Source of the DNA: Flavobacterium sp.
Lineage (GTDB): Bacteria > Bacteroidota > Bacteroidia > Flavobacteriales > Flavobacteriaceae
NCBI RefSeq assembly: GCF_027533505.1
Contig: NZ_JAPZUB010000056.1
Span: 77-64,076 of the forward strand
Direction of reading: 5' to 3'
DNA: 64,000 bases
Below, one piece after another: positions 20,224 to 61,833 of this stretch (position 1 is its first letter; each line of letters begins with the position of its first letter). The translations under genes and the position numbers were made by a program. Under the pieces are notes generated by a model. That model ran no database searches, was not told the origin of the DNA, and saw only the letters and a program-made list of their open reading frames with translations.

Positions 20224-20249
20224 TCCAGTTTATTTAAAAGTTGAATACC

Positions 20250-23200
20250 ATGAAAAACAACTATATGACTTTCAAATCGAACAAAACCCACTTTTTACTG
20301 CTTCAGCTCATCCTTCTTTTTGGAAGCTTAAGTTTGCTTCATGCACAGGTTTATGTTCCGTTTTCACAACGTACCTCTTCGTTTACGCCTACACAAACGG
20401 TTTACAATGTGAAAGGAGATTTTACCATGATTGGTAATACCAACCTGACCTTACAAAACTATGGGAATAATACTAATAACAACAATAATACTATGGTATA
20501 TGTTGATGTTGATGGTAATTCACCCATTGGATTAGGAGGAAGTCCTACTTTTAACTCCTCTTCAGCTAACTTAACTTTCTCAACAGAAAATGGAGCTATC
20601 CCTTCTTGTTCTAAAATCGTTTTTGCTGGATTATATTGGACAGGTCGGGCTAGTCAATCCACTGCTGGAACTTCAAATACTTTTAATGTAATTCGTACCA
20701 TTAATGGAACTAGTTACACAAAACAATTTGATAAACGAAGAGTAATGTTAAGAGGTCCTAGCGCATCTACATATACTATGATGACGGCTACTAATAATAA
20801 CATTTATTACCCAACTAACACATCAGACTACATCTATTCTGGATATACAGAAATTACAGACTATGTTCGTCAAAACGGTTTGGGAACTTATACAGTAGCA
20901 GATATTGCTCTTCGTGATGGTAACGGAGGTGGAACAGGATACTCTGGAGGATGGGGTATAGTAGTTGTATATGAAAACTCCAAAATGAAGTACCGAGACA
21001 TCACAATTTTTGACGGTCATGCATACATGAATGGTTTATCAACAACGAACCTACCGGTTTCTGGTTTTAACACCGTACAAAACGGAAATGTAGGTGTCAA
21101 ATTAGGTTTGATGGCTTCTGAAGGGGATGTTAGCCTTACTGGTGATTTTTTCAGAATTCAGAATCTAAACACCGCTAATTATACTAATTTATCGCACAGT
21201 GGTAATAGCGCCTCTAACTTTTTTAACTCGTCCATAGCGACCGGTGGAAATACTCGTAATCCGAATTTACAAAATAATACGGGGATCGATATTTCCATGT
21301 TTAATTTGAATAACACCAATAACGCTATTATTGGAAATAGTCAAACGTCAACCAATTTCCAATACGGAAGTGGTGGTGACGTATATGCTATTTTTAATAT
21401 CACCATGGCGGTTGATGCTTATATTCCAGAACCTGAAGGTTTATTGACTGTAACACAACTCAATGGTGTCAATGTCTCTGCAGCACCTTACACAATTCAG
21501 CCTGGTCAAGACATGACTTTTACGGTTGATATTCGCAATCAAGGTACCGAAGCAATCAACAATGCAAAAATTGTGATTCCTGTCCCTTACAATGCGACTT
21601 ATGTACCTAATACGGCTTCGGGTAGTGTATTTTTTACTCCGCTTCCAACACCCAATTCAATCACGTTTAACCCTTCATTAGGGGCTACAGGTTCAATTGT
21701 TTGGGATTTTGGTCGTTTACCATTACCTACTACTCCCAACCAAGTGTTGGCTCGTTTGACATTTAAATTAAGAGCGACAACGGATTGTACTATTTTAAAT
21801 AATAGTGCTTGTGGTAATGCCATATTAGTAAATGGTACTTTATCTGGTACAGGTGCAATAACAGGAGTAGTATTTAATAACCGTCCTTTAATTCAAGGTC
21901 ACACCTCAAACGGAACATGTATTGGGGAGCCTATTACACAATCGATATCAATTGCAATAAATGGAACCAATTATGTTAATGCAAATTGTCAAGGGGTACC
22001 TGCAATTCGAAACTTTGCGTATTGTGGTTCTGGAAATACGGTTCCTGTCACTGATGTAGCCTCAAGTTTTCCTGTAGGCTCTTCTTTCTACAATGAATTC
22101 CCTGTAGATTCCAATACGATTCAATATACAAGCACAAACCCCTTTCCAATTACACCCGGTTCAACCGTAACCTATTATGCTGTACCTGCTGGTGCAAGCG
22201 GTTGTTTTATTCCATTTACGATTTCGCGTTGTAATAAAATTATCGCCAATGATGATGCCGGTTCGTCGGTTGTTGGTGCTGCGGGTGGAGTTTCATTTAC
22301 CAATGTTTTAATCAATGATACATTGAATGGAAACCCAGTGACAACATCACAAGTAGTTATTTCGCAAATTTCAACATCCAATGCTGGGGTAACATTATCA
22401 GGTAACAATGTTGTTGTTGCTCCAGGTACCCCTGCTGGCAACTATACTTTAGTTTACCAAATTTGTGAAGTATCCAATCCAACCAACTGTGATACTGCAA
22501 CAGTTACAGTACCTGTCTCAGCTGCTGTTATTAATGCTGTTGATGATTCTGGAAGCGCTAATGGCGCTACTGGTGGCACAGCAGTACCTAATGTATTGGT
22601 TAACGATACATTAAACGGACAGCCTGTAGTATTAGCGCAGGTAAATTTAACCCAAGTTTCTACTTCAAATCCAAATGTAACTTTAGATCCTACAACGGGT
22701 GCGGTGAATGTAGCTGCTGGAACTCCGGCCGGTAATTATACTTTAGTATACCAAATCTGTGAAATCGTAAATCCATCGAACTGTGATACCGCTATCGTAA
22801 CAGTAACTGTTGCTGCGCCTATCATTGTGGCTAATGACGATGCAGGAACTCCTGTAAACGGTTTTGCAGGTGGAACTTCATTCACTAACGTTTTAGTAAA
22901 CGATACCTTAAACGGGCAGCCTGTGGTGGCTTCTCAAGTGAATACTACTTTCGTTTCTTCTACCCATCCAGGTATTACCCTTGTTGGTACTGATGTGGTA
23001 GTAGCGCCTGGTACACCTGCGGGTTCATACCAATTGGTATATCAAATCTGTGAAGTAATCAATCCTTCGAATTGTGATACTGCTACAGTATTTGTTACTG
23101 TTCATCTACCACAGATCATTGCTAACGATGACAACTTTACAATTCTTTGTTCAGCTAACGGTTCTTTAGGTAATGCAATCTCAAATGATACTTTGAATGG

Positions 23201-24959
23201 ATTACCAATAACTAGTGGATTAGTAAACTTTACAATTCTATCTGGTGCAGCACCAAATATTGTAATTGATACCAATGGAAATATTTCACTTACTGAGACG
23301 GGTAGTTGTGGAACTTATACTTTCACTTACCAAATTTGTGAAGTTTTAAACCCAAATAACTGTGACACTGCTACTATAACAATTACTATCCAAGATACAA
23401 CCAACCCAACGTTCGTAGAAGCGTTACCTGCGGATGTAACAGCGGAATGTTCTAACGTTCCTGCTGCGGTAACTTTAACCGCTACGGATGATTGTGGTGA
23501 GGCTAACGTAACTTTCAACGAAGTAACTACTGCGGGGGCTTGTCCGGGTGCTTATACCTTGACACGTACGTGGACGGCAACAGATGCTTGTGGCAACACT
23601 ACATCACACGTTCAAACCGTAACGGTTCAAGATACAACCAACCCAACTTTCGTAGAAACGTTACCTGCGGATGTAACGGCGGAATGTTCTAACGTTCCTG
23701 CTGCGGTAACTTTAACCGCTACGGATAACTGTGGGGCGGCTAACGTAACTTTCAACGAAGTAACTACTGCGGGAGCTTGTCCTGGTGCTTATACCTTGAC
23801 ACGTACGTGGACGGCAACAGACGCTTGTGGTAACACAACCACGCACGTTCAAACCGTAACTGTTCAAGATACAACCAACCCAACGTTCGTAGAATCATTA
23901 CCTGCAGATGTAACAGCGGAATGTTCTAACGTTCCTGCTGCGGCTACCCTTACTGCTACTGACAACTGTGGGGCAGCTAACGTAACTTTCAACGAAGCAA
24001 CTACTGCGGGGGCTTGTCCTGGTGCATATACCTTGACACGTACGTGGACGGCAACAGATGCTTGTGATAACACAACATCGCACGTTCAAACCGTAACTGT
24101 TCAAGATACGACAGCGCCTCAGATTGCAACAGCATATCAAACTGTAATTAGTGCTACTTGTGATGCAGTTCCTGCAGCTCCAGAATTACAGTTTACAGAT
24201 AACTGTGCTGCTACGGTTACTGTAGTGTTTAATGAAACAAGTACTACACCTGTTAATGGATCGTATACAATTGTTCGTACATGGACAGTTTCTGATAGTT
24301 GTAATAACACAAACACGTATACACAAACTGTAAACGTTACTGTTAATGCAACGACAAATCAGTATGCTTATCCTGAGGCTGTATGTACCGATGATAATAC
24401 TTTATTAATTGATATTGCTGCTGTTATTGCTACGCAGTTCCCTGGTACAGATACTACTTCTGGAACTTGGACTGACATGAACAATTCAGGAGGTTTAAAT
24501 ACAACAACTGGAGTATTTAATCCATACCAATTGCCTGATGACACTTATGTAATTAAGTATACATTACCAACAGCAACGTGTCCGATTGAATTCTTAGTAT
24601 CTATTAATGCAAATGATGAAGTTTGTACTGTATTACCAGCTTGTCAACCTATCATTGTTAACAATGCAGTTACACCAAATGGTGACGGTGCTAATGATTT
24701 CTTTATCATTGAAAATATTCAAGATATTACATGTTACCCGGAAAATACGGTTGAAATTTACAACCGTTGGGGTGTGAAAGTATTTGATACTACAAATTAC
24801 GACAACACTTCAAGAGTATTCCGTGGAATTTCAGAAGGTAGAGCAACCGTAAATCAGTCTGCTGAATTACCAACAGGTACCTACTTCTACATTTTGAAAT
24901 ATAAAAAAGCGGATGGTAACTTTGTAACTAAAAACGGATATTTGTATTTGTCAAGATAA
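20250..24959 (+). CDS. Large T9SS type-B-CTD (gliding-motility-associated C-terminal domain) adhesin, SprB-like
   Basis: Signal peptide, DUF11-like segment, 4 ANDD Ig-like repeats and HYR-like repeats. The CTD reads [14 protein letters not shown]...N.VEIYNRWG...GTYFYIL...GYLYLSR. Confidence 0.9.
22239..23390 (+). repeat. Four roughly 97-aa ANDD/AVDD Ig-like repeats in the adhesin
   Basis: The N/V-DD motif codons start at 22248, 22539, 22833 and 23124 (291-294 bp period). Each repeat ends YQICE..NP.NCDTA.V. Confidence 0.8.
23391..24101 (+). repeat. Three near-identical 237-bp (79-aa) HYR-like tandem repeats, with a degenerate fourth from 24102
   Basis: CAAGATAC starts at 23391, 23628, 23865 and 24102; the first three copies are nearly identical at DNA level. 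Confidence 0.95.
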
Positions 24960-34187: not shown

Positions 34188-34972
34188 AAGCAGCAGAAAT
34201 AATTGAATCTGGACAACTCGAATTGTATGTGTACGGCGTTTTAACGACTGAAGAAACGGCAGCAATTGCGTCACTAGCAAAAAAAGAAAATGAGGTTAAT
34301 GAGGAAATCATTGCCATTGAAAAATCGGTTATTAACCTTTCCTCAAGTTTGGCTCCTGCCCTATCTGCGGGCGTATTTGAACGGTTAAAAACTTCTTTAG
34401 CACTCACATCAACCTCTGTTATCCCAATACCGCGTCGTCGTAACACGACCATGTACCTGGGTTGGGCCGCTTCGATTGCTTTGCTATTGGGTGTCGTTTT
34501 CCAGTACAACCAAACTAACGAAGTGACGACACAATTGAAATCGACCGAAACGGAAAAATCGAATTTACAAAAATCGGTTGTCACGTTAACCCTTGAAAAG
34601 CAACAAACAGAAGTCGCTTTGCAGGTGATTCGCGATCGTCAAAATACAGTCGTTGCCTTGGCAGGGCAAACCGTTGCACCGCAAGCCACAGCGACTATTT
34701 ATTGGAATCAAAAGACACAACAAGTTTATGTCGATGTCTCGGGATTGCCTGAGCCGCCCCAAGGAAAAGTCTATCAAATATGGTCGTTAAAGTTAACCCC
34801 AACACTCACGCCAACGAGCATAGGTTTACTCAACGATTTTACCAAAAATTCAGCTAAAGTTTTTGCCGTGGAAACTACGGATGATGCCCAAGCTTTTGGA
34901 ATTACTCTTGAACCTGCGGGAGGTAGCGCCACACCTACTATGGAGCAATTGTATACCCTCGGAAAAGTCTAA
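34184..34972 (+). CDS. Anti-sigma factor, RskA type
   Basis: N-terminal SGQLELYVYG, one TM, and C-terminal GKVYQIW...FGITLEPAGGS..PT; overlaps the sigma stop. Confidence 0.88.
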   Translation: MKAAEIIESGQLELYVYGVLTTEETAAIASLAKKENEVNEEIIAIEKSVINLSSSLAPALSAGVFERLKTSLALTSTSVIPIPRRRNTTMYLGWAASIALLLGVVFQYNQTNEVTTQLKSTETEKSNLQKSVVTLTLEKQQTEVALQVIRDRQNTVVALAGQTVAPQATATIYWNQKTQQVYVDVSGLPEPPQGKVYQIWSLKLTPTLTPTSIGLLNDFTKNSAKVFAVETTDDAQAFGITLEPAGGSATPTMEQLYTLGKV

Positions 34973-53720: not shown

Positions 53721-54436
53721 TATTTTTTCAACAAATAACGTACAACGGTTTCTGCGGCATGGAGTCCAAACAAACAAGGCATCCAAGAATTCGTTCCGTA
53801 AAACGATTTTTTAAAATTGCTTCCGTCGGTATGTTTTACACTATCATAATCCGGACGTTCGCTGGAGTAAACCACTTTGATACCCCCTGAAATTCCTTCC
53901 TTTTTAAGGCGTTTCCGCACGTGTTTGGCCAAGGGACAGTAATCGGTTTTGCTGATATCGGTGACTTTTACCTTAGCTGCCAAATATTTTCCACCTGCAC
54001 CCATATTACTGATTACTTTGACGCCTTTGCGTTTGGCGGCCAATAATAAATTCAATTTGGGAGTTACACTATCGATACAATCTAAGACATAATCAAACTC
54101 AGGCGAAACCAATTCAAAGGCCCGTTCGGGTGATAAAAACTCTTTCAAAGGAGTCAATTCCAATTCGGGGTTGATGTCCCACAAACGCGCGGCCATAAGT
54201 TCAACTTTAGGTAAACCTACTGTAGAATGCAACGCGGGTAATTGCCTGTTAATGTTGGTGATATCTACGACATCGCCATCCACAATAGTCATTTTTCCGA
54301 CGCCTGCACGCGCTAAAAATTCGGCGGCAAACGAACCTACGCCTCCCAAACCTACTACCAATACATTTGCCTGACGTAATTTTTCTAAACCTTCCGTCTT
54401 AAATAATAGTTCTGCACGTTCTTGCCAAACAGCCAT
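53720..54436 (-). CDS. tcdA: tRNA threonylcarbamoyladenosine dehydratase (ThiF family)
   Basis: Motifs GLGGVGS, DGDVVDITNINRQ, DCID and SNMGAGG. Confidence 0.9.
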   Translation of the reverse strand: MAVWQERAELLFKTEGLEKLRQANVLVVGLGGVGSFAAEFLARAGVGKMTIVDGDVVDITNINRQLPALHSTVGLPKVELMAARLWDINPELELTPLKEFLSPERAFELVSPEFDYVLDCIDSVTPKLNLLLAAKRKGVKVISNMGAGGKYLAAKVKVTDISKTDYCPLAKHVRKRLKKEGISGGIKVVYSSERPDYDSVKHTDGSNFKKSFYGTNSWMPCLFGLHAAETVVRYLLKK

Positions 54437-54446
54437 GATTTTAGAA

Positions 54447-54502
54447 TTATGAGTTATGAATTATGAGTTATGAGTTATGAGTTATGAGTTATGAGTTATG
54501 AA
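54447..54502. repeat. Heptamer tandem array (TTATGAR)x8
   Basis: Eight contiguous 7-mers: six TTATGAG and two TTATGAA. Confidence 0.95.
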
Positions 54503-54509
54503 TGGACTG

Positions 54510-54517
54510 CAAAAATA
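54510..54517 (-). promoter_or_regulatory. -7 promoter box (TATTTTTG) for tcdA, between two heptamer arrays
   Basis: CAAAAATA on the plus strand matches TAnnTTTG. Confidence 0.55.
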
Positions 54518-54530
54518 AGGATTTGGTGGG

Positions 54531-54607
54531 AGAAGAAAGAAGAAAGAAGAAAGAAGAAAGAAGAAAGAAGAAAGAAGAAAGAGAAAAGAGAAAAGAGAAA
54601 AGAGAAA
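54531..54607. repeat. Heptamer tandem array (AGAAGAA)x7 followed by (AGAGAAA)x4
   Basis: Eleven contiguous purine-only 7-mers between the tatD stop and the tcdA promoter. Confidence 0.95.
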
Positions 54608-54635
54608 AGACTCTTGCAGCGCAGCGGTCTTGCTT

Positions 54636-55277
54636 CTATTTCCCAAACACCTGCGCTACATTCCGTTGGATTTGTTGTTGGAGCTCGTTGACTTCCACAT
54701 TACGATAAAGGGCGGCTTGGGCATATACCGCGGCGATAGATACCTCTAGGGTATCGGTTTCCAGAAAAAAGCGATCCTTGGGAACCGTCAAAAACGTTTC
54801 GCGAAGGTCGGGATTGTGTAACAAGTATTTCCCAAACGAAAGGTATAATCCATGCCGCACGAGCTCTTGGGCCAATTGGGCGCTTTTGGAAAATCCATGA
54901 ACTATTAAAGGAACGGAAATATTCAGTTGTTTTTTTATCGAAAGTAGTTCTTGAAACGCCCCAACTAGGTGAAGCACAACCGGTTTTTGATGGTGTTCTG
55001 CCAATACAAGGTGGGCTTTAAAGACGTCGCACTGTAGGTCAAAGGGCACCTCAATACGTTTATCCAAACCGCACTCCCCTATAGCCCAACAGCCCTTTTG
55101 TGTGAGGTGTTGCGCCACAATATCCAAATGTTCGGGCCATTTTTTTTCATCAATATACCAGGGATGAATCCCGATGGAGTACACCGGTGATTTTCCCTCA
55201 AAAGCCCAAGGATATTCATTGACAAGTTCGACCACTTCGGGCGAGTTTGTATAACGATGGGTGTGTAGATTGAACAT
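54636..55277 (-). CDS. tatD: TatD-family hydrolase
   Basis: Motifs NLHTH, GIHPW, IGECGLDK, HGF and FLETD. Confidence 0.9.
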   Translation of the reverse strand: MFNLHTHRYTNSPEVVELVNEYPWAFEGKSPVYSIGIHPWYIDEKKWPEHLDIVAQHLTQKGCWAIGECGLDKRIEVPFDLQCDVFKAHLVLAEHHQKPVVLHLVGAFQELLSIKKQLNISVPLIVHGFSKSAQLAQELVRHGLYLSFGKYLLHNPDLRETFLTVPKDRFFLETDTLEVSIAAVYAQAALYRNVEVNELQQQIQRNVAQVFGK

Positions 55278-55464
55278 GAAACAAGCATTAACGATTACGT
55301 CACCTTCCTTTTTGATCGGTTGTGGCCATTGAAATCACTAACGAAAGTACGTAAAGATTTTTATTTTTTGGAACATGAATTTGAGAGTCGTTTGTAGGAA
55401 CGTCTATTTCTTATTAAAAATGCACCCATTACAATTGCCAAAAAGGCATTTTTATTGTGCTTTT

Positions 55465-55568
55465 TTTGAACGTTTTCTTCGAACGTTGTTCGGACGTTCT
55501 TCGGGACTTGTTCGGCAAAATGCCGTTTTTCGGGGGTTTTTCCGAACAAGTCCCGAACAAGTCCCGAA
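55465..55568. repeat. 11-mer repeats forming an inverted repeat
   Basis: TTCGAACGTTG/TTCGGACGTTC/TTCGGGACTTG on the left. TTCGGGACTTGTTCGG (55500-55515) is the exact reverse complement of 55542-55557 and of 55553-55568. Confidence 0.9.
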
Positions 55569-55586
55569 GGAGGTGGTGTGGATTTA

Positions 55587-55703
55587 GCCCCCTAGCCCCC
55601 AAAGTGGGGATTAGTTGATGGTTGTCGGTTGATGGTTGTTAGAAGTTGGTCTTGAAACTTCGCGAGGGATTTGGAATTTGATTTTTGAAATTTGAATTTT
55701 TGA
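55587..55703. repeat. REP-like CCCC/GGGG hairpin plus two degenerate heptamer arrays
   Basis: GCCCCCTAGCCCCCAAAGTGGGGA at 55587-55610, four NRGTTGW units at 55612-55639, and five ATTTGAA-like units at 55669-55703. Confidence 0.65.
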
Positions 55704-55759
55704 TTGATATTGGCATACTGCTTCTATTTAACTCTTTACTTTTTGTCTTGACAGAGGTG

Positions 55760-56110
55760 AGTCGTTGGACGTATGAGTGACTAGTGATTAGTGACTAGTC
55801 GTTAGACGTTAGACGTTAGACGTTAGTTAAGGAGGACATGTTAGCACGCCCATTTCTAATTTATAATTCAACATTTAAAATACCTCCAAAAAGGGGTCTT
55901 TGTTCTTTCTTCTTTGTTCTTTCTTCTCAACTTAAAAGTCGTTAGAATTTAGAGTAATTAGTGATTAGTGACTAGTGATTAGTCGTTAGACGTTAGACAT
56001 TAGACGTTAGTCAAGAAGGACGTGTTAGAAAACCCATTTATAATTTAAAATTCAACATTTAAAATACTTCCAAAGAGGGTCTTTGTTCTTGCTTCTTTGC
56101 TCTTTTTTCT
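55760..56110. repeat. Two tandem roughly 170-bp direct repeats, each a mosaic of four heptamer arrays
   Basis: Copies at 55760-55927 and 55937-56110. Each has the order (TAGTGAY)n, (GTTAGAC)n, spacer, (ATTTAAA-like)x4, spacer, (CTTTSTT)x4. Confidence 0.92.
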
Positions 56111-56148
56111 AAAACAAACGATTCAGCCTTTGAATGACTCACAATATC

Positions 56149-56176
56149 AGTTGCTTAGCTTCTCAGCGGCTTTTTT
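56149..56176 (+). terminator. Terminator-like hairpin upstream of the integrase promoter
   Basis: AGTTGCT...AGCGGCT stem with G-U wobbles, followed by T6. Confidence 0.4.
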
Positions 56177-56229
56177 AATAAACGGTTTAGTGGTTCAGCT
56201 TCTCGATGATTTTTTACTTCATTTTTTTG

Positions 56230-56237
56230 TATATTTG
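56230..56237 (+). promoter_or_regulatory. -7 promoter box (TATATTTG) for the integrase
   Basis: Ends 19 nt before ATG 56257. Confidence 0.6.
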
Positions 56238-56256
56238 TCATTCAACTACACGCCAT

Positions 56257-58005
56257 ATGACTTTAATTATTCGAAAAATTGAACACAAAGGAGCGGTACG
56301 CATTGGCATTTTTTTTGAAAGGAATAATGCGATACAGCAACAATTAAAAGGGATTGGAGCTACCTATAGCAAGACGTTTCAATGTTGGTATATTGATTAC
56401 AACAAAGCAGCGTATCAACAGCTAAAAATTTTATTTCCCGATTTACAAATACAGCAACCGGTGGCCGGCGAAACGAGTAGCCGTGACCTTCCACCCATAG
56501 CCCAAAGCGAACTTCAGTTAGGTTTACCTCCTTTGGTAAACAACCCTGAACCTATAACGAACAAGGCTTCGTTAGCCCATAAGTTGCGATTAGAATTATT
56601 ACCACCCTTGGGGAAATATTGGGTTTTTAAAATTCGGTATGTGCAATCGGTTGTGAATCAACTTAAGTTGGTAAAAGGCGTATATTGGCATTCGACGTAC
56701 AAAGTATATATGGCCAATCGGCATCCGAAAGTGAAAGAAGCGGTGGAACGTATTTTGGAAGTTTCCAATTTTTTTCCTGAAAACTATTTGGAAAAAGAGG
56801 TTGTTTTTGAAGGCAAGTCGATTGTTTTGCGTCCACACCTTGAGAATGTGAAATGGATGCAGGTGTATGTTCCTGCACAATTGGTGTTATTGGAAAAAAT
56901 AAAACGCATTTCGATGGTTCGGTACAGTAAACCGAATGCTTGTTTTTTATTGCCTGCAACCCCAGCTGTTGTTAATGCATTAGTGGTACATTTTGAACCG
57001 CATCGTGTTGTGATTCAATCGGAATTGCCTCAGGGATATGTAAACCGACGAAATGTTGTTAATAAAAAGCAACTTGATTTGGCGCGAACAAAATCACATT
57101 TGTTTTCCAAACTTCCTGAGCCGGCACATTATTTTGTTTCCAATTACATGGATACGTTAATGGCGGTGAATTATAGTGTTTCAACCATTCGTACTTATAC
57201 ACAACAATTTTTACAATTTTTACGCGATTTTGAGTACAGAGACCCCAAGGATATCACGTATAAAGAAACGGTTCGTTATTTAGCCTCCTTGATGGAACGC
57301 GGATTGAGTGCAACCTCTGGTCATGCGATGGTGAATGCATTGCTGTTTTATTATAATCAGGTGGAACAAATACCGGGTTATGAATTAAAACTACCTCGGC
57401 CTAAAAAGGAAAAAAAGTTGCCTACTGTTTTGACAAAGGAAGAATGTTTATTGCTTTTTGGGGTGGTTGAAAATCCGAAGCATAAGTTATTGTTATTAAT
57501 TGGTTATGGAGCGGGTTTACGCGTGAGTGAAATTGTGAATTTAGAGTGGCGTGATATTCTGTTTGCGGAACACAAGATTCACATCAGGAATGCGAAAGGA
57601 AAGAAAGATAGAATGGTGATGTTGCCTATGCGTATAGTTCGTTCATTGGAATACTATAAAGAGACGTATCAAACCAAAAAGTACGTATTTGAGGGGCAAT
57701 TTGCAGGTGAGCCCTATTCTGTGCGAAGTGTTCAGGAGGTTATGCGAATGGCATTAAAGAAGACTGGTTTGGAGAAAAAGGCCACGGTACATTCGTTACG
57801 ACATAGTTTTGCTACACATTTGCTGGAGCATGGAACGGATATTCGATATATTCAGCAGATATTGGGTCATTCGAGTATCAAGACCACAACGATTTACACG
57901 CATATTAGTGCAAGTGCTATGAATAAAATCATCAGTCCATTGGATCAGATTACCGAACAAGAATATGAGAAAAAAAGTGAATACGAATTGAAACCTAAGA
58001 AATAG
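56257..58005 (+). CDS. Tyrosine recombinase (integron-integrase-like / Xer-like) with a long N-terminal extension
   Basis: SAM-like segment NYSVSTIRTY and catalytic set GLRVSE, AKGKKDR, HSLRHS, LGH and TTTIYTH. The ORF opens at 56206; 582 aa from ATG 56257. Confidence 0.92.
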   Translation: MTLIIRKIEHKGAVRIGIFFERNNAIQQQLKGIGATYSKTFQCWYIDYNKAAYQQLKILFPDLQIQQPVAGETSSRDLPPIAQSELQLGLPPLVNNPEPITNKASLAHKLRLELLPPLGKYWVFKIRYVQSVVNQLKLVKGVYWHSTYKVYMANRHPKVKEAVERILEVSNFFPENYLEKEVVFEGKSIVLRPHLENVKWMQVYVPAQLVLLEKIKRISMVRYSKPNACFLLPATPAVVNALVVHFEPHRVVIQSELPQGYVNRRNVVNKKQLDLARTKSHLFSKLPEPAHYFVSNYMDTLMAVNYSVSTIRTYTQQFLQFLRDFEYRDPKDITYKETVRYLASLMERGLSATSGHAMVNALLFYYNQVEQIPGYELKLPRPKKEKKLPTVLTKEECLLLFGVVENPKHKLLLLIGYGAGLRVSEIVNLEWRDILFAEHKIHIRNAKGKKDRMVMLPMRIVRSLEYYKETYQTKKYVFEGQFAGEPYSVRSVQEVMRMALKKTGLEKKATVHSLRHSFATHLLEHGTDIRYIQQILGHSSIKTTTIYTHISASAMNKIISPLDQITEQEYEKKSEYELKPKK

Positions 58006-58018
58006 TTACATAAATTTG
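57988..58018 (+). promoter_or_regulatory. Consensus promoter TTG-N20-TAAATTTG overlapping the integrase 3' end (Pc-like)
   Basis: TTG at 57988-57990 and TAAATTTG at 58011-58018 match Bacteroidota -33/-7 spacing. Confidence 0.6.
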
Positions 58019-58042
58019 AATATATTTACTAGTTACAAGCAA
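58003..58042 (+). other. Candidate attI-like recombination site
   Basis: TAGTTACA is repeated at 58003 and 58030; G|TTACAAGCAA begins at 58032. The site function is inference. Confidence 0.4.
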
Positions 58043-58200
58043 CCCTAAAAGACCGACAGTGCGACCATCAAACGACAGAAAAAAAAGCCACCGCACATTT
58101 TAGCACATTTGGTCTTGCCCGACACACAAGCCAACCCTTCGCAAAACCAAAAGAGCTAAAATTTTCCTACCGCACGGACTGACATTCCGAAAATAAGTAT

Positions 58201-58531: not shown

Positions 58532-61422
58532 TGCTTCATTATATCATACAAGAAAAGAAAAACAAATGGTTGCAGTCTGACGACTGCACCATTAGTGATT
58601 TGATAAAGTATATCCGTGACAAAGGACAGTTACGTGATACGCAAATTGAAGCAATTGAGACTTATTTGTTTTTGAAAATACAAGGACAGAATAAACCACT
58701 TTGGCAATTATTTTCAGAAGGCTTTTTCACTAACGGCACAGACTTATCAAAACTTAATATTAATCAAACGGCAAGAGATTTTTTAACCGCCAACAAAGAC
58801 GCTTTTGCATTGTATGACTTTGCAAGAACAAAAAACGGAAACGGTTCTTTACTCCCCGAACTCGAAAAACTAATTGTTGACAAACCAACTGAATTAGATT
58901 ACGACACTATTATAAAAAGCATTTTCTACAATGTAAGCTATGCCGACTACTTAATGAGTTTGCCGATGGGTGCAGGTAAAACATTTCTAATGGCTGCTTT
59001 CATTTATTTGGACTTGTATTTTGCCGACAACGAACCAGAGAATAAAGCATTTGCACATAATTTTTTGGTGCTTATTCCTTCGGGCTTAAAATCTTCTATC
59101 GTTCCGAGTTTAAAGACAATTGAAAATTACGACCCTTCTTGGGTGTTGCCCGAACCATCGGCAAGCAAACTAAAAAAACTATTGAAGTTTGATGTTTTGG
59201 ACGAGCAGAAATCAGCGAAGAAAAGTAACAAGGCAAGAAACCCCAATGCTCAAAAAGTAAATGCTTGCTTACCTAATCCATTCGGACAAGTGTTTGTTGT
59301 AAATGCAGAGAAAGTGATTTTGGAAAGTTTCAAATTCAATGCTCAAACAGAATTGGAACTGGAGGAAGAAGAAAAAGATACAAGCAACGATTTAAAAAGA
59401 TTGTTCGGACAAATTCCGAACTTGACAATCCTTATAGATGAAGTTCACCACGCTGCAACCGATGATATTAAATTACGGCAAGCCGTAAATTATTGGCACA
59501 GCAAAGGGAACATCACAACCGTTTTAGGTTTCTCGGGAACGCCATATTTGCAGGGTGCTGAAACTATCAAAGCAGGTGATTACGCTTTTAAGTTTTCTCA
59601 AATAACCAACACGGTATATTATTATCCATTGGTTACAGCAATTAAGAAATTTCTGAAAACACCAACAGTAAAAATCGGACAAAACCTTGACCGTTTTCAA
59701 ATCATTAAAAAAGGAATTGAGGACTTTGATACACTATACAAGAAAACTGTTTATGAAAATGGTGCTATTGCTAAAATAGCTATCTATTGCAGTAACATTG
59801 AGGTTTTAGAAGAAGAAGTTTATCCGTTCCTGACAAGTGAATTGAAAATAAATCCTGCCGAGATTTTAAAATTTCATGGAGGAAATAAAAAATACACTTT
59901 GCCAAAAGAGAATGAATTAGAATTCCGTTCATTGGATTTGGCTATTTCAAAAAAGCGTTACATTCTTTTAGTTCAAGTGGGAAAAGAAGGTTGGGACTGT
60001 CCAAGTTTAACAGGTGTAATCCTTTCGCAAAAAGGCGACAGCCCACAAAATATGGTGCTGCAAACATCTTGCAGATGTTTACGCCAAGTGGACAAAGGAA
60101 AAGAAGAAACTGCTTTGATTTGGTTGAATAAAGATAATGCCGATACATTGAACAAACAGTTAAAGCAAGAACAAAACAGCAGCATTGACGAACTGAACAG
60201 CACCAAACGAATTGGGAAAGCCGAAATGGTTGAACGCCACAGCCGTATGGAATACTTGCAGTTGCCGAAAGTGGAATTTTATCAAATGAAAGTTACTTAT
60301 CAAAGCATTGATGAGGAAGAAACAGCAAACACAAAAGCCAAGTTAAAAGCTATCATTAAAAAGATGGAAGATTACAAGGCTTCTGCCTTAATCAGCACCA
60401 GTGAAATTTCAAACATTGATACTGGAACTATTGACATTATTAACGAAACAGGAATTGCATTTGCCAATTACAACCAATGGCTTTTTGAAATGAGCCGCCA
60501 AAGTTTTGGGTTGATTTCGGAAACACAATTGCATCAATACGATACAGAATTAAACGAAATATTTGAAACCGTTTCTTTTGAAAAAGACGGAAACCGCTTT
60601 TTCAATGAACTGTATGATTTGCATTTGATACAATCAAAAATTCGTGTTGCGTTTAGCATCAAAAGAGATTTACAAACCGACACAGAAGTAATTCCAAAAC
60701 AAGCGGAATTATTGATTGCCGAACGCTTGACCAATGTAGAGAAAAATCCAAAACTCTATCCGAACGAAGCTGATACAAACAAAATTCTTGAATTAGATAA
60801 AAGCAATGCCGATGTTGAATTTGACTGGGCAGAAGTTGAAAAGGCTTATCTGGTAATGAAGGAGACAATGATAAGTCAAGGAATGGAAAAGTGGGTTCCT
60901 GAATATGAAACTTTCAAATCCGATAAAGATTATTCTCTACCAACAAAATCTAAAAATAATTCCTTTCATTATTTACCCTACAATTTTGGAGCTAGCGGAA
61001 GCAGTGGTTTTGAAATACAAGCACTTCAAGAAACCTTAAGATTAGCTGATTTCAAAACTAAAGAGTTGGAAATATACTACAATGGCGAACGTGGCTTAAC
61101 CGAATTTGTCATTAACTGCTTTGCCAAAGAAGGAAAGTATTGGAAAAACATTGGGAAATACACTACTGACTTTTTAATTGTGAAACGAACCGCTAAAGAT
61201 AAAATTCATAAAGCCCTACTTATTGAAACCAAAGGTGCTTTGTATGCAGAAGACAAGGTTTTTCAGAAAAAGAAAAACTATGTAGAAACAGAGTTTTTAA
61301 AACTCAACCAAGATAAATTCGGCTATCAACGTTTCGACTTCCTGTATTTGGAAGACAGCAAAAACATTGCAGCCAACATCACAGAATTGAACAATAAGTT
61401 AAACCAGTTCTTCAATGATTAA
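58531..61422 (+). CDS. Type III restriction (Res)-like SF2 helicase-nuclease
   Basis: Motifs SLPMGAGKT, DEVHH, FSGTP, VGKEGWDCP and QTSCRCLR; C-terminal PD-(D/E)xK-like TTDFLIV...LIETKG. Confidence 0.82.
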   Translation: MLHYIIQEKKNKWLQSDDCTISDLIKYIRDKGQLRDTQIEAIETYLFLKIQGQNKPLWQLFSEGFFTNGTDLSKLNINQTARDFLTANKDAFALYDFARTKNGNGSLLPELEKLIVDKPTELDYDTIIKSIFYNVSYADYLMSLPMGAGKTFLMAAFIYLDLYFADNEPENKAFAHNFLVLIPSGLKSSIVPSLKTIENYDPSWVLPEPSASKLKKLLKFDVLDEQKSAKKSNKARNPNAQKVNACLPNPFGQVFVVNAEKVILESFKFNAQTELELEEEEKDTSNDLKRLFGQIPNLTILIDEVHHAATDDIKLRQAVNYWHSKGNITTVLGFSGTPYLQGAETIKAGDYAFKFSQITNTVYYYPLVTAIKKFLKTPTVKIGQNLDRFQIIKKGIEDFDTLYKKTVYENGAIAKIAIYCSNIEVLEEEVYPFLTSELKINPAEILKFHGGNKKYTLPKENELEFRSLDLAISKKRYILLVQVGKEGWDCPSLTGVILSQKGDSPQNMVLQTSCRCLRQVDKGKEETALIWLNKDNADTLNKQLKQEQNSSIDELNSTKRIGKAEMVERHSRMEYLQLPKVEFYQMKVTYQSIDEEETANTKAKLKAIIKKMEDYKASALISTSEISNIDTGTIDIINETGIAFANYNQWLFEMSRQSFGLISETQLHQYDTELNEIFETVSFEKDGNRFFNELYDLHLIQSKIRVAFSIKRDLQTDTEVIPKQAELLIAERLTNVEKNPKLYPNEADTNKILELDKSNADVEFDWAEVEKAYLVMKETMISQGMEKWVPEYETFKSDKDYSLPTKSKNNSFHYLPYNFGASGSSGFEIQALQETLRLADFKTKELEIYYNGERGLTEFVINCFAKEGKYWKNIGKYTTDFLIVKRTAKDKIHKALLIETKGALYAEDKVFQKKKNYVETEFLKLNQDKFGYQRFDFLYLEDSKNIAANITELNNKLNQFFND

Positions 61423-61447
61423 TGGTTAATTGTAAATTGTTAATGAA
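61419..61447. repeat. Left heptamer array (TTAATTG-like x4) of the four-helix element
   Basis: TTAATGG TTAATTG TAAATTG TTAATGA fills the gap from the res stop to ATG 61448. Confidence 0.8.
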
Positions 61448-61807
61448 ATGACAGAGAATATTATAAAAAATAAAAGTTTTGCATTTGCAATTAGAGTTGT
61501 AAAACTATATCAGTTTTTATGTGAAACAAAAAAGGAGTTTGTTCTTTCAAAGCAATTGTTGAGAAGCGGAACTGCTGTTGGTGCATTAGTTCGAGAAGCT
61601 GAACACGCTGAAAGCAAAGCAGATTTTAAACACAAAATGTCAATTGCTCAAAAAGAAATAAATGAAAGTATCTATTGGCTCGAATTGCTAAAAGAAACGG
61701 ACTATTTAACCAATGAACAATTTCAAAGCATCAATGCAGATGCAGTAGAAATAATCAAACTACTTACATCAATAATCAAATCGACCAAAGCAAACATTAA
61801 CAACTAA
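61448..61807 (+). CDS. Four helix bundle protein (23S rRNA-IVS-protein / bAvd-like family)
   Basis: 119 aa with KSFAFAIRVVKLY, LSKQLLRSGTAVGALVREA, AESKADFKHK.SIA.KE..ES.YWLELL. Confidence 0.92.
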   Translation: MTENIIKNKSFAFAIRVVKLYQFLCETKKEFVLSKQLLRSGTAVGALVREAEHAESKADFKHKMSIAQKEINESIYWLELLKETDYLTNEQFQSINADAVEIIKLLTSIIKSTKANINN

Positions 61808-61828
61808 CAATTGATAATTAACAATTAG
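61794..61828. repeat. Right heptamer array (CAATTAA-like x5), inverted relative to the left array
   Basis: ACATTAA CAACTAA CAATTGA TAATTAA CAATTAG, ending 5 nt before the mod ATG. Confidence 0.8.
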
Positions 61829-61833
61829 AAAAA

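What the first reader, a model, noticed from the sequence alone, without database searches (positions are those of the whole stretch)
55760..56110. Tandem roughly 170-bp non-coding unit built from four ordered heptamer modules, just upstream of the integrase
Seen: two diverged copies share the order TAGTGAY, GTTAGAC, spacer, ATTTAAA-like x4, spacer, CTTTSTT x4. They differ by one whole heptamer plus point changes. GTTAGAC (five exact copies) fits the integron core consensus GTTRRRY. Inference: a higher-order repeat grammar not explained by simple slippage; possibly recombinase landing sites, duplication scars or a modular ncRNA. The GTTRRRY match may be coincidental.
Basis: partly seen in the sequence, partly recalled or inferred. 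Interest (0 to 1): 0.65.

Follow-up and report, generated by a model that had tools for sequence, protein, structure and literature searches.

The report
Duplicated mosaic of seven-base repeats
Two side-by-side copies of a 176-base patchwork of 7-base repeats sit upstream of an integrase gene in a freshwater Flavobacterium; they look like a fast-changing, species-specific piece of the ordinary 7-base-repeat DNA that fills gene spacers in this group, not a recombinase docking site.

Summary
Window 55760-55935 and 55936-56113 are two tandem copies, 87-88% identical. Each is built in the same order from TAGTGAY, GTTAGAC, ATTTAAA-like and CTTTSTT heptamer arrays.

The interpretation as recombinase sites is not supported.
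- The whole unit occurs only in this species (four strains). It is absent from 80 other species that carry the same integrase family.
- Its individual heptamer modules recur in many Bacteroidota contigs that lack this integrase.
- Per kb of intergenic DNA, heptamer arrays are no denser upstream of this integrase family than elsewhere (0.256 against 0.266).
- Between strains the units differ by whole-heptamer indels and by patches exchanged between the two copies. The adjoining 143-nt promoter region is invariant.
- The unit has no significant fold, no ORF, no Rfam match and no promoter box. Transcript contigs of the integrase start at 56252, downstream of the unit.
- GTTRRRY occurs 132 times in the window, so that match carries no information.

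Best reading: a segmental duplication of a slippage-born heptamer mosaic (a known kind of long simple sequence repeat), kept changing by slippage and copy-to-copy conversion.

The conserved feature upstream of related integrases is a different element, an 11-mer-array hairpin at 55462-55575.

The parts
55760..55935 (.). Unit 1. TAGTGAY array 55775-55800; GTTAGAC array 55801-55828; spacer 55829-55851; ATTTCTA/ATTTATA/ATTCAAC/ATTTAAA array 55852-55879; small A/T hairpin with G run 55880-55896; TCTTTGT/TCTTTCT array 55897-55927; junction 55928-55935.
   Evidence: weak terminator-like site at 55882-55897
55936..56113 (.). Unit 2, 87-88% identical to unit 1. TAGTGAY array 55959-55984; GTTAGAC/ATTAGAC array 55985-56012; spacer 56013-56035; ATTTAAA-like array 56036-56063; 56064-56079 hairpin CAAAGA-GGG-TCTTTG; CT-rich array 56080-56107.
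55388..55472 (.). U0: a compact, array-poor third copy of the unit's core plus T-rich tail, lying just before the 11-mer hairpin.
   Evidence: Local alignment score 57-58 against a shuffle mean of 28, sd 5, maximum 51. nhmmer E = 0.037, which is weak.
55462..55575 (.). Hairpin made of inverted 11-mer arrays (NNNNTTGTTCG x3-4 / CGAACAANNNN x2-3). This, not the unit, is the conserved element upstream of related integrases.
   Evidence: Fold z-score -4.87. The same arrays lie 190-330 nt upstream of the integrase in L006, L007, L008, L015, L019 and L054.
55576..55759 (.). Module C: TAGCCCCC x2 with a small GGGG/CCCC hairpin, NRGTTGW heptamers, TTTGAWW heptamer-like tract, and CTTTACTTTTTGTCTTGACA. 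Its right part (about 82 nt, 90% identical) occurs twice in strains L001 and L210.
56114..56256 (+). Invariant integrase promoter and leader region. The Bacteroidota -7 box TATATTTG lies at 56230-56237. Exact RNA contigs begin at 56252.
   Evidence: 0 of 143 columns vary among four strains; -7 box; RNA contigs
56257..58005 (+). 582-aa tyrosine recombinase with a Xer/IntI-like catalytic domain that scores below the integron-integrase cutoff.
54447..54610 (.). Heptamer arrays of the ThiF-TatD spacer: TTATGAG x8, AGAAGAA x8, AAAGAGA x4.7. Comparable arrays (an AYTCATA leader before the ThiF start and a CT-rich tract before its -7 box) fill this spacer in species without this integrase at the site. 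The AGAAAGA array is the inverted complement of the unit's CT-rich module.

Best explanation
The 176-nt 'unit' is non-coding repeat DNA of a known kind. It is a mosaic of heptanucleotide microsatellites (long simple sequence repeats) that grew by replication slippage inside the spacer upstream of the integrase promoter. The mosaic was then copied once as a block, giving a segmental tandem duplication. Since then it has been kept in flux by three processes: gain and loss of whole heptamers, gene conversion or unequal exchange between the two copies, and point mutation.

Shown here: the structure, its restriction to one species, the slippage and conversion footprints, and the independence of its modules from the integrase.

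Inferred: that it has no sequence-specific role for the integrase, and acts at most as a length or spacer element upstream of the promoter.
For: 1. Structure. There are two copies, 87-88% identical, with nested period-7 arrays. A third, array-poor copy (U0) lies at 55388-55472. The tail of unit 2 aligns with the post-hairpin spacer of related integrase loci. Both fit arrays expanding inside older sequence.

2. Turnover among four strains.
- The promoter region has 0 of 143 variable columns, the upstream non-repeat DNA 1 of 476, and the integrase about 5 of 1,710 ungapped columns.
- Unit 1 has 21 variable columns and unit 2 has 7. All array-length differences are 7 nt.
- L210's unit 1 carries a unit-2-type core. 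The window's unit 2 carries the AAAGA-GGG / TTGCTTC patch found in unit 1 of other strains. Both are conversion tracts.

3. Not tied to the integrase.
- The unit is absent from 80 other species' loci of this integrase family.
- Heptamer arrays occur at 0.256 per kb of intergenic DNA directly upstream of the integrase, against 0.266 elsewhere in the same loci.
- Period 7 is simply the commonest array period (55 arrays, against 25 for period 8 and 11 for period 11).

4. Modules are generic.
- The ATTTAAA-type array occurs in at least 119 metagenome contigs, none with this integrase. It is often one arm of a hairpin or sits directly before an ATG.
- ATTTAAA plus CT-rich combinations recur in unrelated contigs L087 and L134.
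- AYTCATA, ATTTAMA and CT-rich arrays flank TatD and ThiF in species without this integrase.

5. No sign of a product or site.
- Fold z-scores are 0.45 and 0.01.
- Stop codons occur in all six frames.
- There is no Rfam match and no TAnnTTTG box inside the unit.
- Exact metatranscriptome contigs begin at 56252-56295, and none spans the unit.

6. Literature. Heptanucleotides are the commonest long simple sequence repeat. Mixed 'assemblages of heptamer repeats' in intergenic regions are described for Gramella, Aequorivita and Elizabethkingia (PMC4679880).
Against: - All four strains keep exactly two full units, so some constraint on copy number cannot be excluded. The strains are very close, however.
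- The unit abuts a perfectly conserved promoter region.
- In freshwater metagenomes, summed contig depth over the unit is 5-35 times that of the flanks.
- A 42-nt string spanning the TAGTGAC/GTTAGAC junction sits in a 1,217-nt RNA contig with unrelated flanks. Blocks of the mosaic therefore exist at one or more other loci or organisms.
- Arrays are locally concentrated: eight period-7 arrays lie in 54.4-61.8 kb and none in the first 54 kb.
- The first heptamer of the CT-rich module, GTCTTTG, equals the Bacillus subtilis CspB binding consensus (PMC1904285). This could point to a binding role.
Confidence: 0.65

Rival explanations
1. The arrays are phased binding sites for a protein that binds single-stranded nucleic acid or shapes the nucleoid, for example a cold-shock-domain protein at one monomer per heptamer. 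Together with the small A/T hairpin, they would tune or insulate the integrase promoter, acting as an upstream spacer, terminator or insulator.
For: - B. subtilis CspB binds a heptanucleotide with consensus GTCTTTG/T (PMC1904285). Module 4 starts with GTCTTTG and continues TTCTTTC / TTCTTTG.
- A CT-rich array lies just upstream of the ThiF -7 box in several species.
- A weak terminator-like hairpin lies in unit 1 at 55882-55897, and a stronger A/T hairpin sits at the equivalent place in relatives.
- All four strains keep two units.
Against: - The heptamer words are highly diverse: 87 canonical words among 248 arrays. Most are not pyrimidine-rich.
- The unit varies far more than its flanks, which is unlike a conserved operator.
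- Most integrase loci of the family lack any such arrays.
- No binding data exist for any Flavobacterium protein.
Confidence: 0.14
2. The unit, or blocks of it, belongs to a dispersed, non-autonomous repeat family: MITE/REP-like, or remnants of the heptamer 'arms' of four-helix-bundle gene cassettes. Such a family would be copied between loci, and the two copies here would be two insertions or one insertion that was later duplicated.
For: - Contig depth over the unit is excess in four metagenomes, with many different flanks.
- The 42-nt module 1-2 junction occurs in a foreign RNA contig.
- A four-helix-bundle gene bracketed by inverted heptamer arrays lies 5 kb away at 61419-61833.
- Strain L209 has the units in a different upstream context.
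- Strains L001 and L210 gained a 196-nt palindromic element beside the units.
Against: - No second full-length unit occurs in the 64-kb window or in 1.8 Mb of related loci.
- The unit has no terminal inverted repeats and no hairpin.
- It shows no similarity to the four-helix-bundle gene.
- The excess depth can be explained by the generic arrays alone.
- L209 is a metagenome-bin contig whose breakpoint lies inside a repeat, so it may be chimeric.
Confidence: 0.12
3. The arrays are arm-type or landing sites of the adjacent tyrosine recombinase, or they mark the left end of the integrase-bearing element.
For: - The unit lies 143 nt upstream of the integrase.
- In strain L209, homology with the window starts inside the unit array.
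- The TatD flank is a hot spot for different islands in other species.
Against: - The unit is absent from 80 other species with the same integrase family.
- Heptamer density upstream of the integrase equals the intergenic background.
- Cargo in four strains diverges about 30-40 nt after the integrase stop codon, not upstream.
- There is no inverse core (GTCTAAC) to form an attC-like hairpin: the only minus-strand GTTAGAC is at 34967.
- The integrase scores 202.8 bits against TIGR02249, whose cutoff is 265.
Confidence: 0.06
4. The unit encodes a modular non-coding RNA.
For: Heptamer arrays of the same type occur in metatranscriptome contigs from other contexts.
Against: - Fold z-scores are 0.45 and 0.01.
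- There is no Rfam match and no -7 promoter box in or before the unit.
- No RNA contig covers the unit-specific spacers at 95% identity or more, and integrase RNA contigs start at 56252.
- The sequence turns over rapidly.
Confidence: 0.03

Closest known systems
Intergenic heptanucleotide direct repeats / long simple sequence repeats. This covers the TAACTGA-type repeats and the mixed 'assemblages of heptamer repeats' described in Gramella forsetii, Aequorivita sublithincola and Elizabethkingia anophelis (MacGregor 2015, PMC4679880), and the survey by Mrazek et al. 2007 as summarised there.
   Same: - Period 7, intergenic, with several different heptamer words side by side.
- Copy number differs between close relatives.
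- Arrays often sit next to start codons or promoters.
- Function unknown; polymerase slippage has been proposed as the generator.
   Different: Here a whole mosaic of four arrays plus spacers has been duplicated as a 176-nt block, and the two blocks exchange patches. The words TAGTGAY and GTTAGAC are not the ones described in those papers.
Cyanobacterial STRR (short tandemly repeated repetitive) heptamer sequences (own knowledge; mentioned in papers found)
   Same: Tandem heptamers of several sequence types in intergenic DNA, with no established function.
   Different: A different phylum and different words. STRR are defined by a few consensus heptamers, whereas here the vocabulary is open (87 words among 248 arrays).
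Bacterial minisatellites / VNTR with higher-order structure (own knowledge)
   Same: A repeat of a repeat, evolving by unequal exchange and conversion and hypervariable against invariant flanks.
   Different: Only two copies (plus one degenerate copy) in all four strains seen. No copy-number variation of the 176-nt block could be shown.
Integron attI/attC sites with core GTTRRRY, read by IntI integrases (own knowledge of the consensus)
   Same: GTTAGAC fits GTTRRRY, and a tyrosine recombinase with an IntI/Xer-like catalytic domain lies next to it.
   Different: - The copies are tandem direct repeats with no inverse core and no imperfect hairpin.
- The consensus occurs 132 times in the window by chance.
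- The integrase is below the TIGR02249 cutoff.
- The variable cargo starts downstream of the integrase, not at the unit.
Arm-type binding sites of lambda-type integrases (own knowledge)
   Same: Short repeated sequences near an integrase gene or attachment site.
   Different: Arm sites are conserved with their integrase. These arrays are not shared by any of 80 related integrase loci, and they change between strains.

Membership tests
Heptanucleotide long simple sequence repeats (intergenic heptamer direct repeats) | Head-to-tail copies of a 7-nt unit, three or more copies, longer than chance | tested here: met
   TRF finds period-7 arrays of 3.4-4.6 copies inside both units and 8 copies nearby. 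Period 7 is the commonest period in 1.1 Mb of related loci.
Heptanucleotide long simple sequence repeats (intergenic heptamer direct repeats) | Non-coding, intergenic position | tested here: met
   Stop codons occur in all six frames. The unit lies between TatD and the integrase.
Heptanucleotide long simple sequence repeats (intergenic heptamer direct repeats) | Length polymorphism in steps of the unit between close relatives (slippage) | tested here: met
   7-nt indels occur in module 1 and module 2 among the window, L001, L210 and L209. The ThiF-TatD arrays have 7.9 against 6.6 copies and 8.1 against 7.1 copies.
Integron attC / attI recombination site | Pair of inverse core (RYYYAAC) and core (GTTRRRY) sites forming an imperfect hairpin | tested here: not met
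   Only direct GTTAGAC copies are present, and the sole minus-strand copy is at 34967. The unit has no significant fold.
Integron attC / attI recombination site | Adjacent integrase is an IntI (TIGR02249) | tested here: not met
   202.8 bits against a cutoff of 265, matched in two stretches.
Integron attC / attI recombination site | Cassette junctions coincide with the site | tested here: not met
   Four strains diverge in cargo about 30-40 nt after the integrase stop codon (58034-58042), not in the unit.
Arm-type / accessory sites of this integrase family | Sequence conserved together with the integrase across species | tested here: not met
   No unit or core match in 80 loci from other species.
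Arm-type / accessory sites of this integrase family | Bound by the integrase | not testable with these tools
   Needs EMSA or ChIP.
Structured non-coding RNA | Stable or conserved secondary structure, or a match to a known family | tested here: not met
   z-scores 0.45 (+ strand) and 0.01 (- strand). No Rfam hit over the unit at E <= 1.
Structured non-coding RNA | Transcribed as a discrete RNA | tested here: inconclusive
   Four metatranscriptomes give exact contigs only from 56252 onward. Over the unit there are only 24-42-nt array matches inside foreign contigs. Depth is low, and contigs cannot prove absence.
Heptamer-armed four-helix-bundle (IVS-protein-like) cassette | Two mutually inverted heptamer arrays bracketing a small four-helix-bundle gene, or abutting each other when empty | tested here: not met
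   The arrays within a unit are not complementary to each other, although the unit's CT-rich array does pair with the distant 54530-54561 array. There is no hairpin and no similarity to the 4HB gene at 61448-61807.
Dispersed MITE/REP-like repeat | Multiple full-length copies at unrelated loci of the same genome | not tested
There is no second copy in the 64-kb window. Metagenome contig depth is raised, but the generic arrays can explain that.

The most novel reading that the evidence does not exclude
Heptamer mosaics such as this one may not be mere slippage debris. They may be phased landing pads for cold-shock-domain (or similar single-strand-binding) proteins, with one heptamer per protein.
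- The CT-rich module begins with the exact CspB heptanucleotide consensus GTCTTTG.
- Comparable arrays lie just before -7 boxes and start codons across Flavobacterium.
- Blocks of arrays (TAGTGAC followed by GTTAGAC) appear in the same order at another transcribed locus.

If true, the 7-nt period of bacterial simple repeats would reflect a protein footprint, and the duplicated unit would be a tunable insulator or leader in front of the integrase.
Probability: 0.07. Interest if true: 0.75.

Novelty: new member of a known kind. Interest (0 to 1): 0.25.

Why it matters
The main value is negative and clarifying. The conspicuous 'grammar' next to an unusual integrase is not part of the recombination machinery. 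People studying this integrase platform should look instead at two places: the site just after the integrase stop codon, and the conserved 11-mer-array hairpin upstream.

The locus also gives a clean, small example of how heptamer microsatellites evolve in Flavobacterium. Arrays are born inside older sequence, a block is duplicated, lengths change in 7-nt steps, and the copies exchange patches, all against invariant flanks. This adds to the evidence that 7-nt arrays are a general and still unexplained feature of Bacteroidota gene spacers.

Tried and rejected
- Known RNA families: only a spurious miRNA-model hit on the 11-mer hairpin, far below its gathering score.
- Small ORF: the 35-codon frame after AAGGAGG-ATG in unit 1 is not kept in unit 2. 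Rejected.
- Decayed four-helix-bundle gene: tblastn found nothing better than E = 2.5. Rejected.
- DGR-like template/variable pair: no reverse transcriptase domain turned up in the neighbouring genes scanned, and the differences between the two copies are of mixed types rather than adenine-specific. Considered and rejected by inspection only.
- Enrichment of heptamer arrays near the integrase: raw distance bins showed 2.95 arrays per 10 kb in the last 500 nt, against 0.3-0.55 further away. The excess vanished after normalising to intergenic DNA: 0.256 against 0.266 per kb. The ORF mask was crude.
- Copy-number variation of the 176-nt block in metagenomes: short-read contigs break inside the arrays, so the joints seen (for example 'skips 185') cannot be told from assembly collapse or from other organisms.
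- Literature search for Flavobacterium heptanucleotide repeats or integron-like platforms: nothing specific was found.

Full report
**The observation**

The region is as described. Tandem Repeats Finder reports a period-184 array at 55776-56110 (1.8 copies, 88% matches, score 542), with nested period-7 arrays. A local alignment pairs 55760-55930 with 55936-56113. The two copies differ by 7 nt of gap near the 5' end, one 1-nt gap and scattered substitutions. BLAST gives 87% identity over 158 nt, E = 2e-50.

Each copy reads, in order: TAGTGAY x3-4, GTTAGAC x3-4, a 23-nt spacer, four ATTTAAA-like heptamers, a 16-17-nt spacer holding a small A/T hairpin, then four TCTTTSY heptamers. GTTAGAC has five exact + strand copies here. 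The integrase is 582 aa and starts at 56257, 143 nt after the unit.

**The surroundings**

To the left lie photolyase, HAD, DUF1648, ThiF/TcdA and TatD genes. To the right lie the tyrosine recombinase, an HTH gene and a type III restriction-modification system. The organism is a freshwater Flavobacterium.

The whole stretch from 54447 to 56110 is a patchwork of short-period arrays:
- TTATGAG x8, AGAAGAA x8 and AAAGAGA x4.7 between ThiF and TatD;
- an inverted pair of 11-mer arrays at 55462-55575 that folds strongly (z = -4.87);
- NRGTTGW heptamers and a TTTGAWW tract;
- then the two units.

**Is the unit linked to the integrase family?**

I fetched 80 loci from other species that encode this integrase family, with up to 10 kb on each side. 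I also fetched several close strains. BLAST and an nhmmer profile of the unit core find the unit only in four strains of this one species: the window, L001, L209 and L210, plus the fragment L002. No other integrase locus has it.

Period 7 is the commonest array period in these loci: 55 arrays, against 25 of period 8 and 11 of period 11. Raw counts looked enriched in the 500 nt before the integrase. Per kb of intergenic DNA, however, the density is the same as elsewhere: 0.256 against 0.266. Heptamer arrays are therefore a general property of intergenic DNA in this genus, not of this integrase.

**Do the modules occur without the integrase?**

Yes.
None encodes this integrase; the best tblastn hit was 27% identity.
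- In many of those contigs the array is one arm of an AT-rich hairpin or ends a few bases before an ATG.
- Two unrelated contigs (L087, L134) repeat the combination of an ATTTAAA array with CT-rich arrays.
- In Flavobacterium stagni and two other relatives, TatD and ThiF lie next to other genes rather than this integrase. Their spacers still hold AYTCATA arrays before the start codons and a CT-rich array before the ThiF -7 box.

**How does the unit evolve?**

Counts of variable columns among the four strains:

| Segment | Variable columns |
|---|---|
| 143 nt between unit and integrase | 0 of 143 |
| 476 nt of non-repeat DNA to the left | 1 of 476 |
| Integrase | about 5 of 1,710 |
| Unit 1 | 21 |
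| Unit 2 | 7 |

- All length differences inside the arrays are exactly 7 nt.
- L210's unit 1 carries a unit-2-type core.
- The window's unit 2 carries a patch (AAAGA-GGG, TTGCTTC) that other strains have in unit 1.

These are footprints of slippage and of conversion between the two copies.

A third, compact and array-poor copy of the core lies at 55388-55472 (alignment score 57-58, against a shuffle mean of 28 and maximum of 51). The tail of unit 2 also aligns with the spacer that follows the 11-mer hairpin in related integrase loci. Both fit arrays that expanded inside older sequence, followed by duplication of the block.

**Signs of a product or a site**

There are none.
- The unit folds no better than shuffled sequence on either strand (z = 0.45 and 0.01).
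- It has stop codons in all six frames and no conserved small ORF.
- It matches no Rfam family.
- It contains no Bacteroidota -7 box. The only two boxes in 54400-56300 serve ThiF and the integrase.
- In four metatranscriptomes, contigs that match exactly begin at 56252, 56261, 56261 and 56295. None runs from the unit into the gene. This is weak evidence, because depth is low and contigs cannot show absence.

**The integron idea**

- GTTRRRY occurs 132 times in the window, against 150 expected.
- There is no inverse core nearby.
- The integrase scores 202.8 bits against the integron-integrase model, whose cutoff is 265.
- Four strains with 99-100% identical integrases carry four different cargos, which begin about 30-40 nt after the integrase stop codon.

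The active junction is therefore downstream of the gene, not at the unit.

**What is conserved upstream of the integrase**

In the closest relatives the conserved feature is the 11-mer-array hairpin, 190-330 nt before the start codon. In this species it sits about 700-800 nt upstream, because module C and the two units lie in between.

**Comparison with what is known**

Heptanucleotides are reported as the commonest long simple sequence repeat in prokaryotes, with polymerase slippage proposed as the cause. Intergenic 'assemblages' of several heptamer repeats are described in the flavobacteria Gramella, Aequorivita and Elizabethkingia (PMC4679880). This locus is a new member of that kind. Its particular feature is that a whole mosaic was duplicated as a block.

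**What remains open**

- Summed contig depth over the unit in freshwater metagenomes is 5-35 times that of the flanks.
- A 42-nt string across the TAGTGAC/GTTAGAC junction lies in a 1,217-nt RNA contig with other flanks. Blocks of the mosaic therefore exist elsewhere.
- The first heptamer of the CT-rich module equals the CspB heptanucleotide consensus GTCTTTG/T (PMC1904285). This is a lead for a binding role, not evidence.

**Earlier notes of this scan**

Earlier notes describe heptamer arrays as genus-wide spacer features and describe this integrase platform. My own tests agree with the first point. They add that the unit is not part of the second.

Noticed in passing
window 55462-55575: Hairpin built from inverted 11-mer arrays (TTGTTCG / CGAACAA), fold z-score -4.87. 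The same arrays lie 190-330 nt upstream of the integrase in L006, L007, L008, L015, L019 and L054. CCGAACAA 11-mers also precede accessory genes in F. lacus (L003:3767-3800) and F. stagni (L206:3456-3488). This is a better candidate than the unit for a site read by the platform.
   Followed up: partly
L006, L007, L008, L009, L015, L019: the last 40-120 nt before the integrase promoter; window 56150-56172 (remnant): Arrays of the octamer CTCAGCNN abut the integrase promoter in several species. Period-8 arrays are enriched in the intergenic DNA directly upstream of this integrase: 10 seen against 1.6 expected, Poisson P about 8e-6.
   Followed up: partly
window 58006-58045; L001:6750-6798; L209:3468-3520; L210:4001-4071: Four strains with 99-100% identical integrases carry four different gene sets that begin about 30-40 nt after the integrase stop codon: HTH-Res-4HB-Mod, OMP plus a Por_Secre_tail protein, an unknown 175-aa product, and DUF4184. 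The short segment before the break is conserved across many species.
   Followed up: partly
L205:536-1579; L206:1-4307; L207:3478-4770: The chromosomal flank of TatD is occupied by different things in related species: a different 347-aa integrase; an HTH_17, DUF6266, Por_Secre_tail and RHS island; or an MFS transporter. It looks like an insertion hot spot.
   Followed up: no
L001:4175-4370 and L210:1472-1667: A 196-nt insertion is present in two strains and absent from the window. It folds into a long imperfect hairpin (z = -2.43) and is accompanied by a second copy of the right part of module C. It looks like a small palindromic mobile repeat.
   Followed up: partly
window 54437-54635; L205:2470-2605; L206:5658-6074; L207:5658-6139: The ThiF (TcdA) leader is an AYTCATA heptamer array that ends a few bases before the ATG, and a CT-rich heptamer array sits just upstream of its TAnnTTTG box. 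This layout is kept across species whose TatD proteins are 69-90% identical to the window's, while copy numbers differ.
   Followed up: partly
metagenome loci L086-L204, for example L103, L106, L110, L122, L203: ATTYAAM heptamer arrays often occur as inverted pairs (TATTTTGAATGTTGAATTTTAAAT ... ATTTAAAATTCAACATTTAAAATA) that form AT-rich hairpins. The right arm often ends 5-10 nt before a start codon. This is seen in soil, freshwater and marine Bacteroidota-like contigs.
   Followed up: no
metatranscriptome run X25, a 1,217-nt contig laid at window 55783-55824: The string TGACTAGTCGTTAGAC x3 (42 nt, one mismatch) lies inside an RNA contig with unrelated flanks (...AAATGGGATTTG and GGAATTTGGGAT...). 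The same two arrays therefore occur in the same order at another, transcribed locus.
   Followed up: no
L206:4330-4950: F. stagni has three copies of a repeat of roughly 150-250 bp containing a long hairpin (GTCATTTCGACGCAAGGAGAAATCCCAT ... ATGGGATTTCTCCCGATGGTCGAAATGAC) in the spacer upstream of TatD.
   Followed up: no
locus table: In many draft assemblies the contig ends within about 2 kb after the integrase gene. This suggests repeated or strain-variable sequence there that breaks assemblies.
   Followed up: no
window 23391-24317: A 237-bp tandem repeat (3 copies, 92% matches) lies inside the 1,572-aa ORF 20241-24959. It is presumably a repeated protein domain.
   Followed up: no
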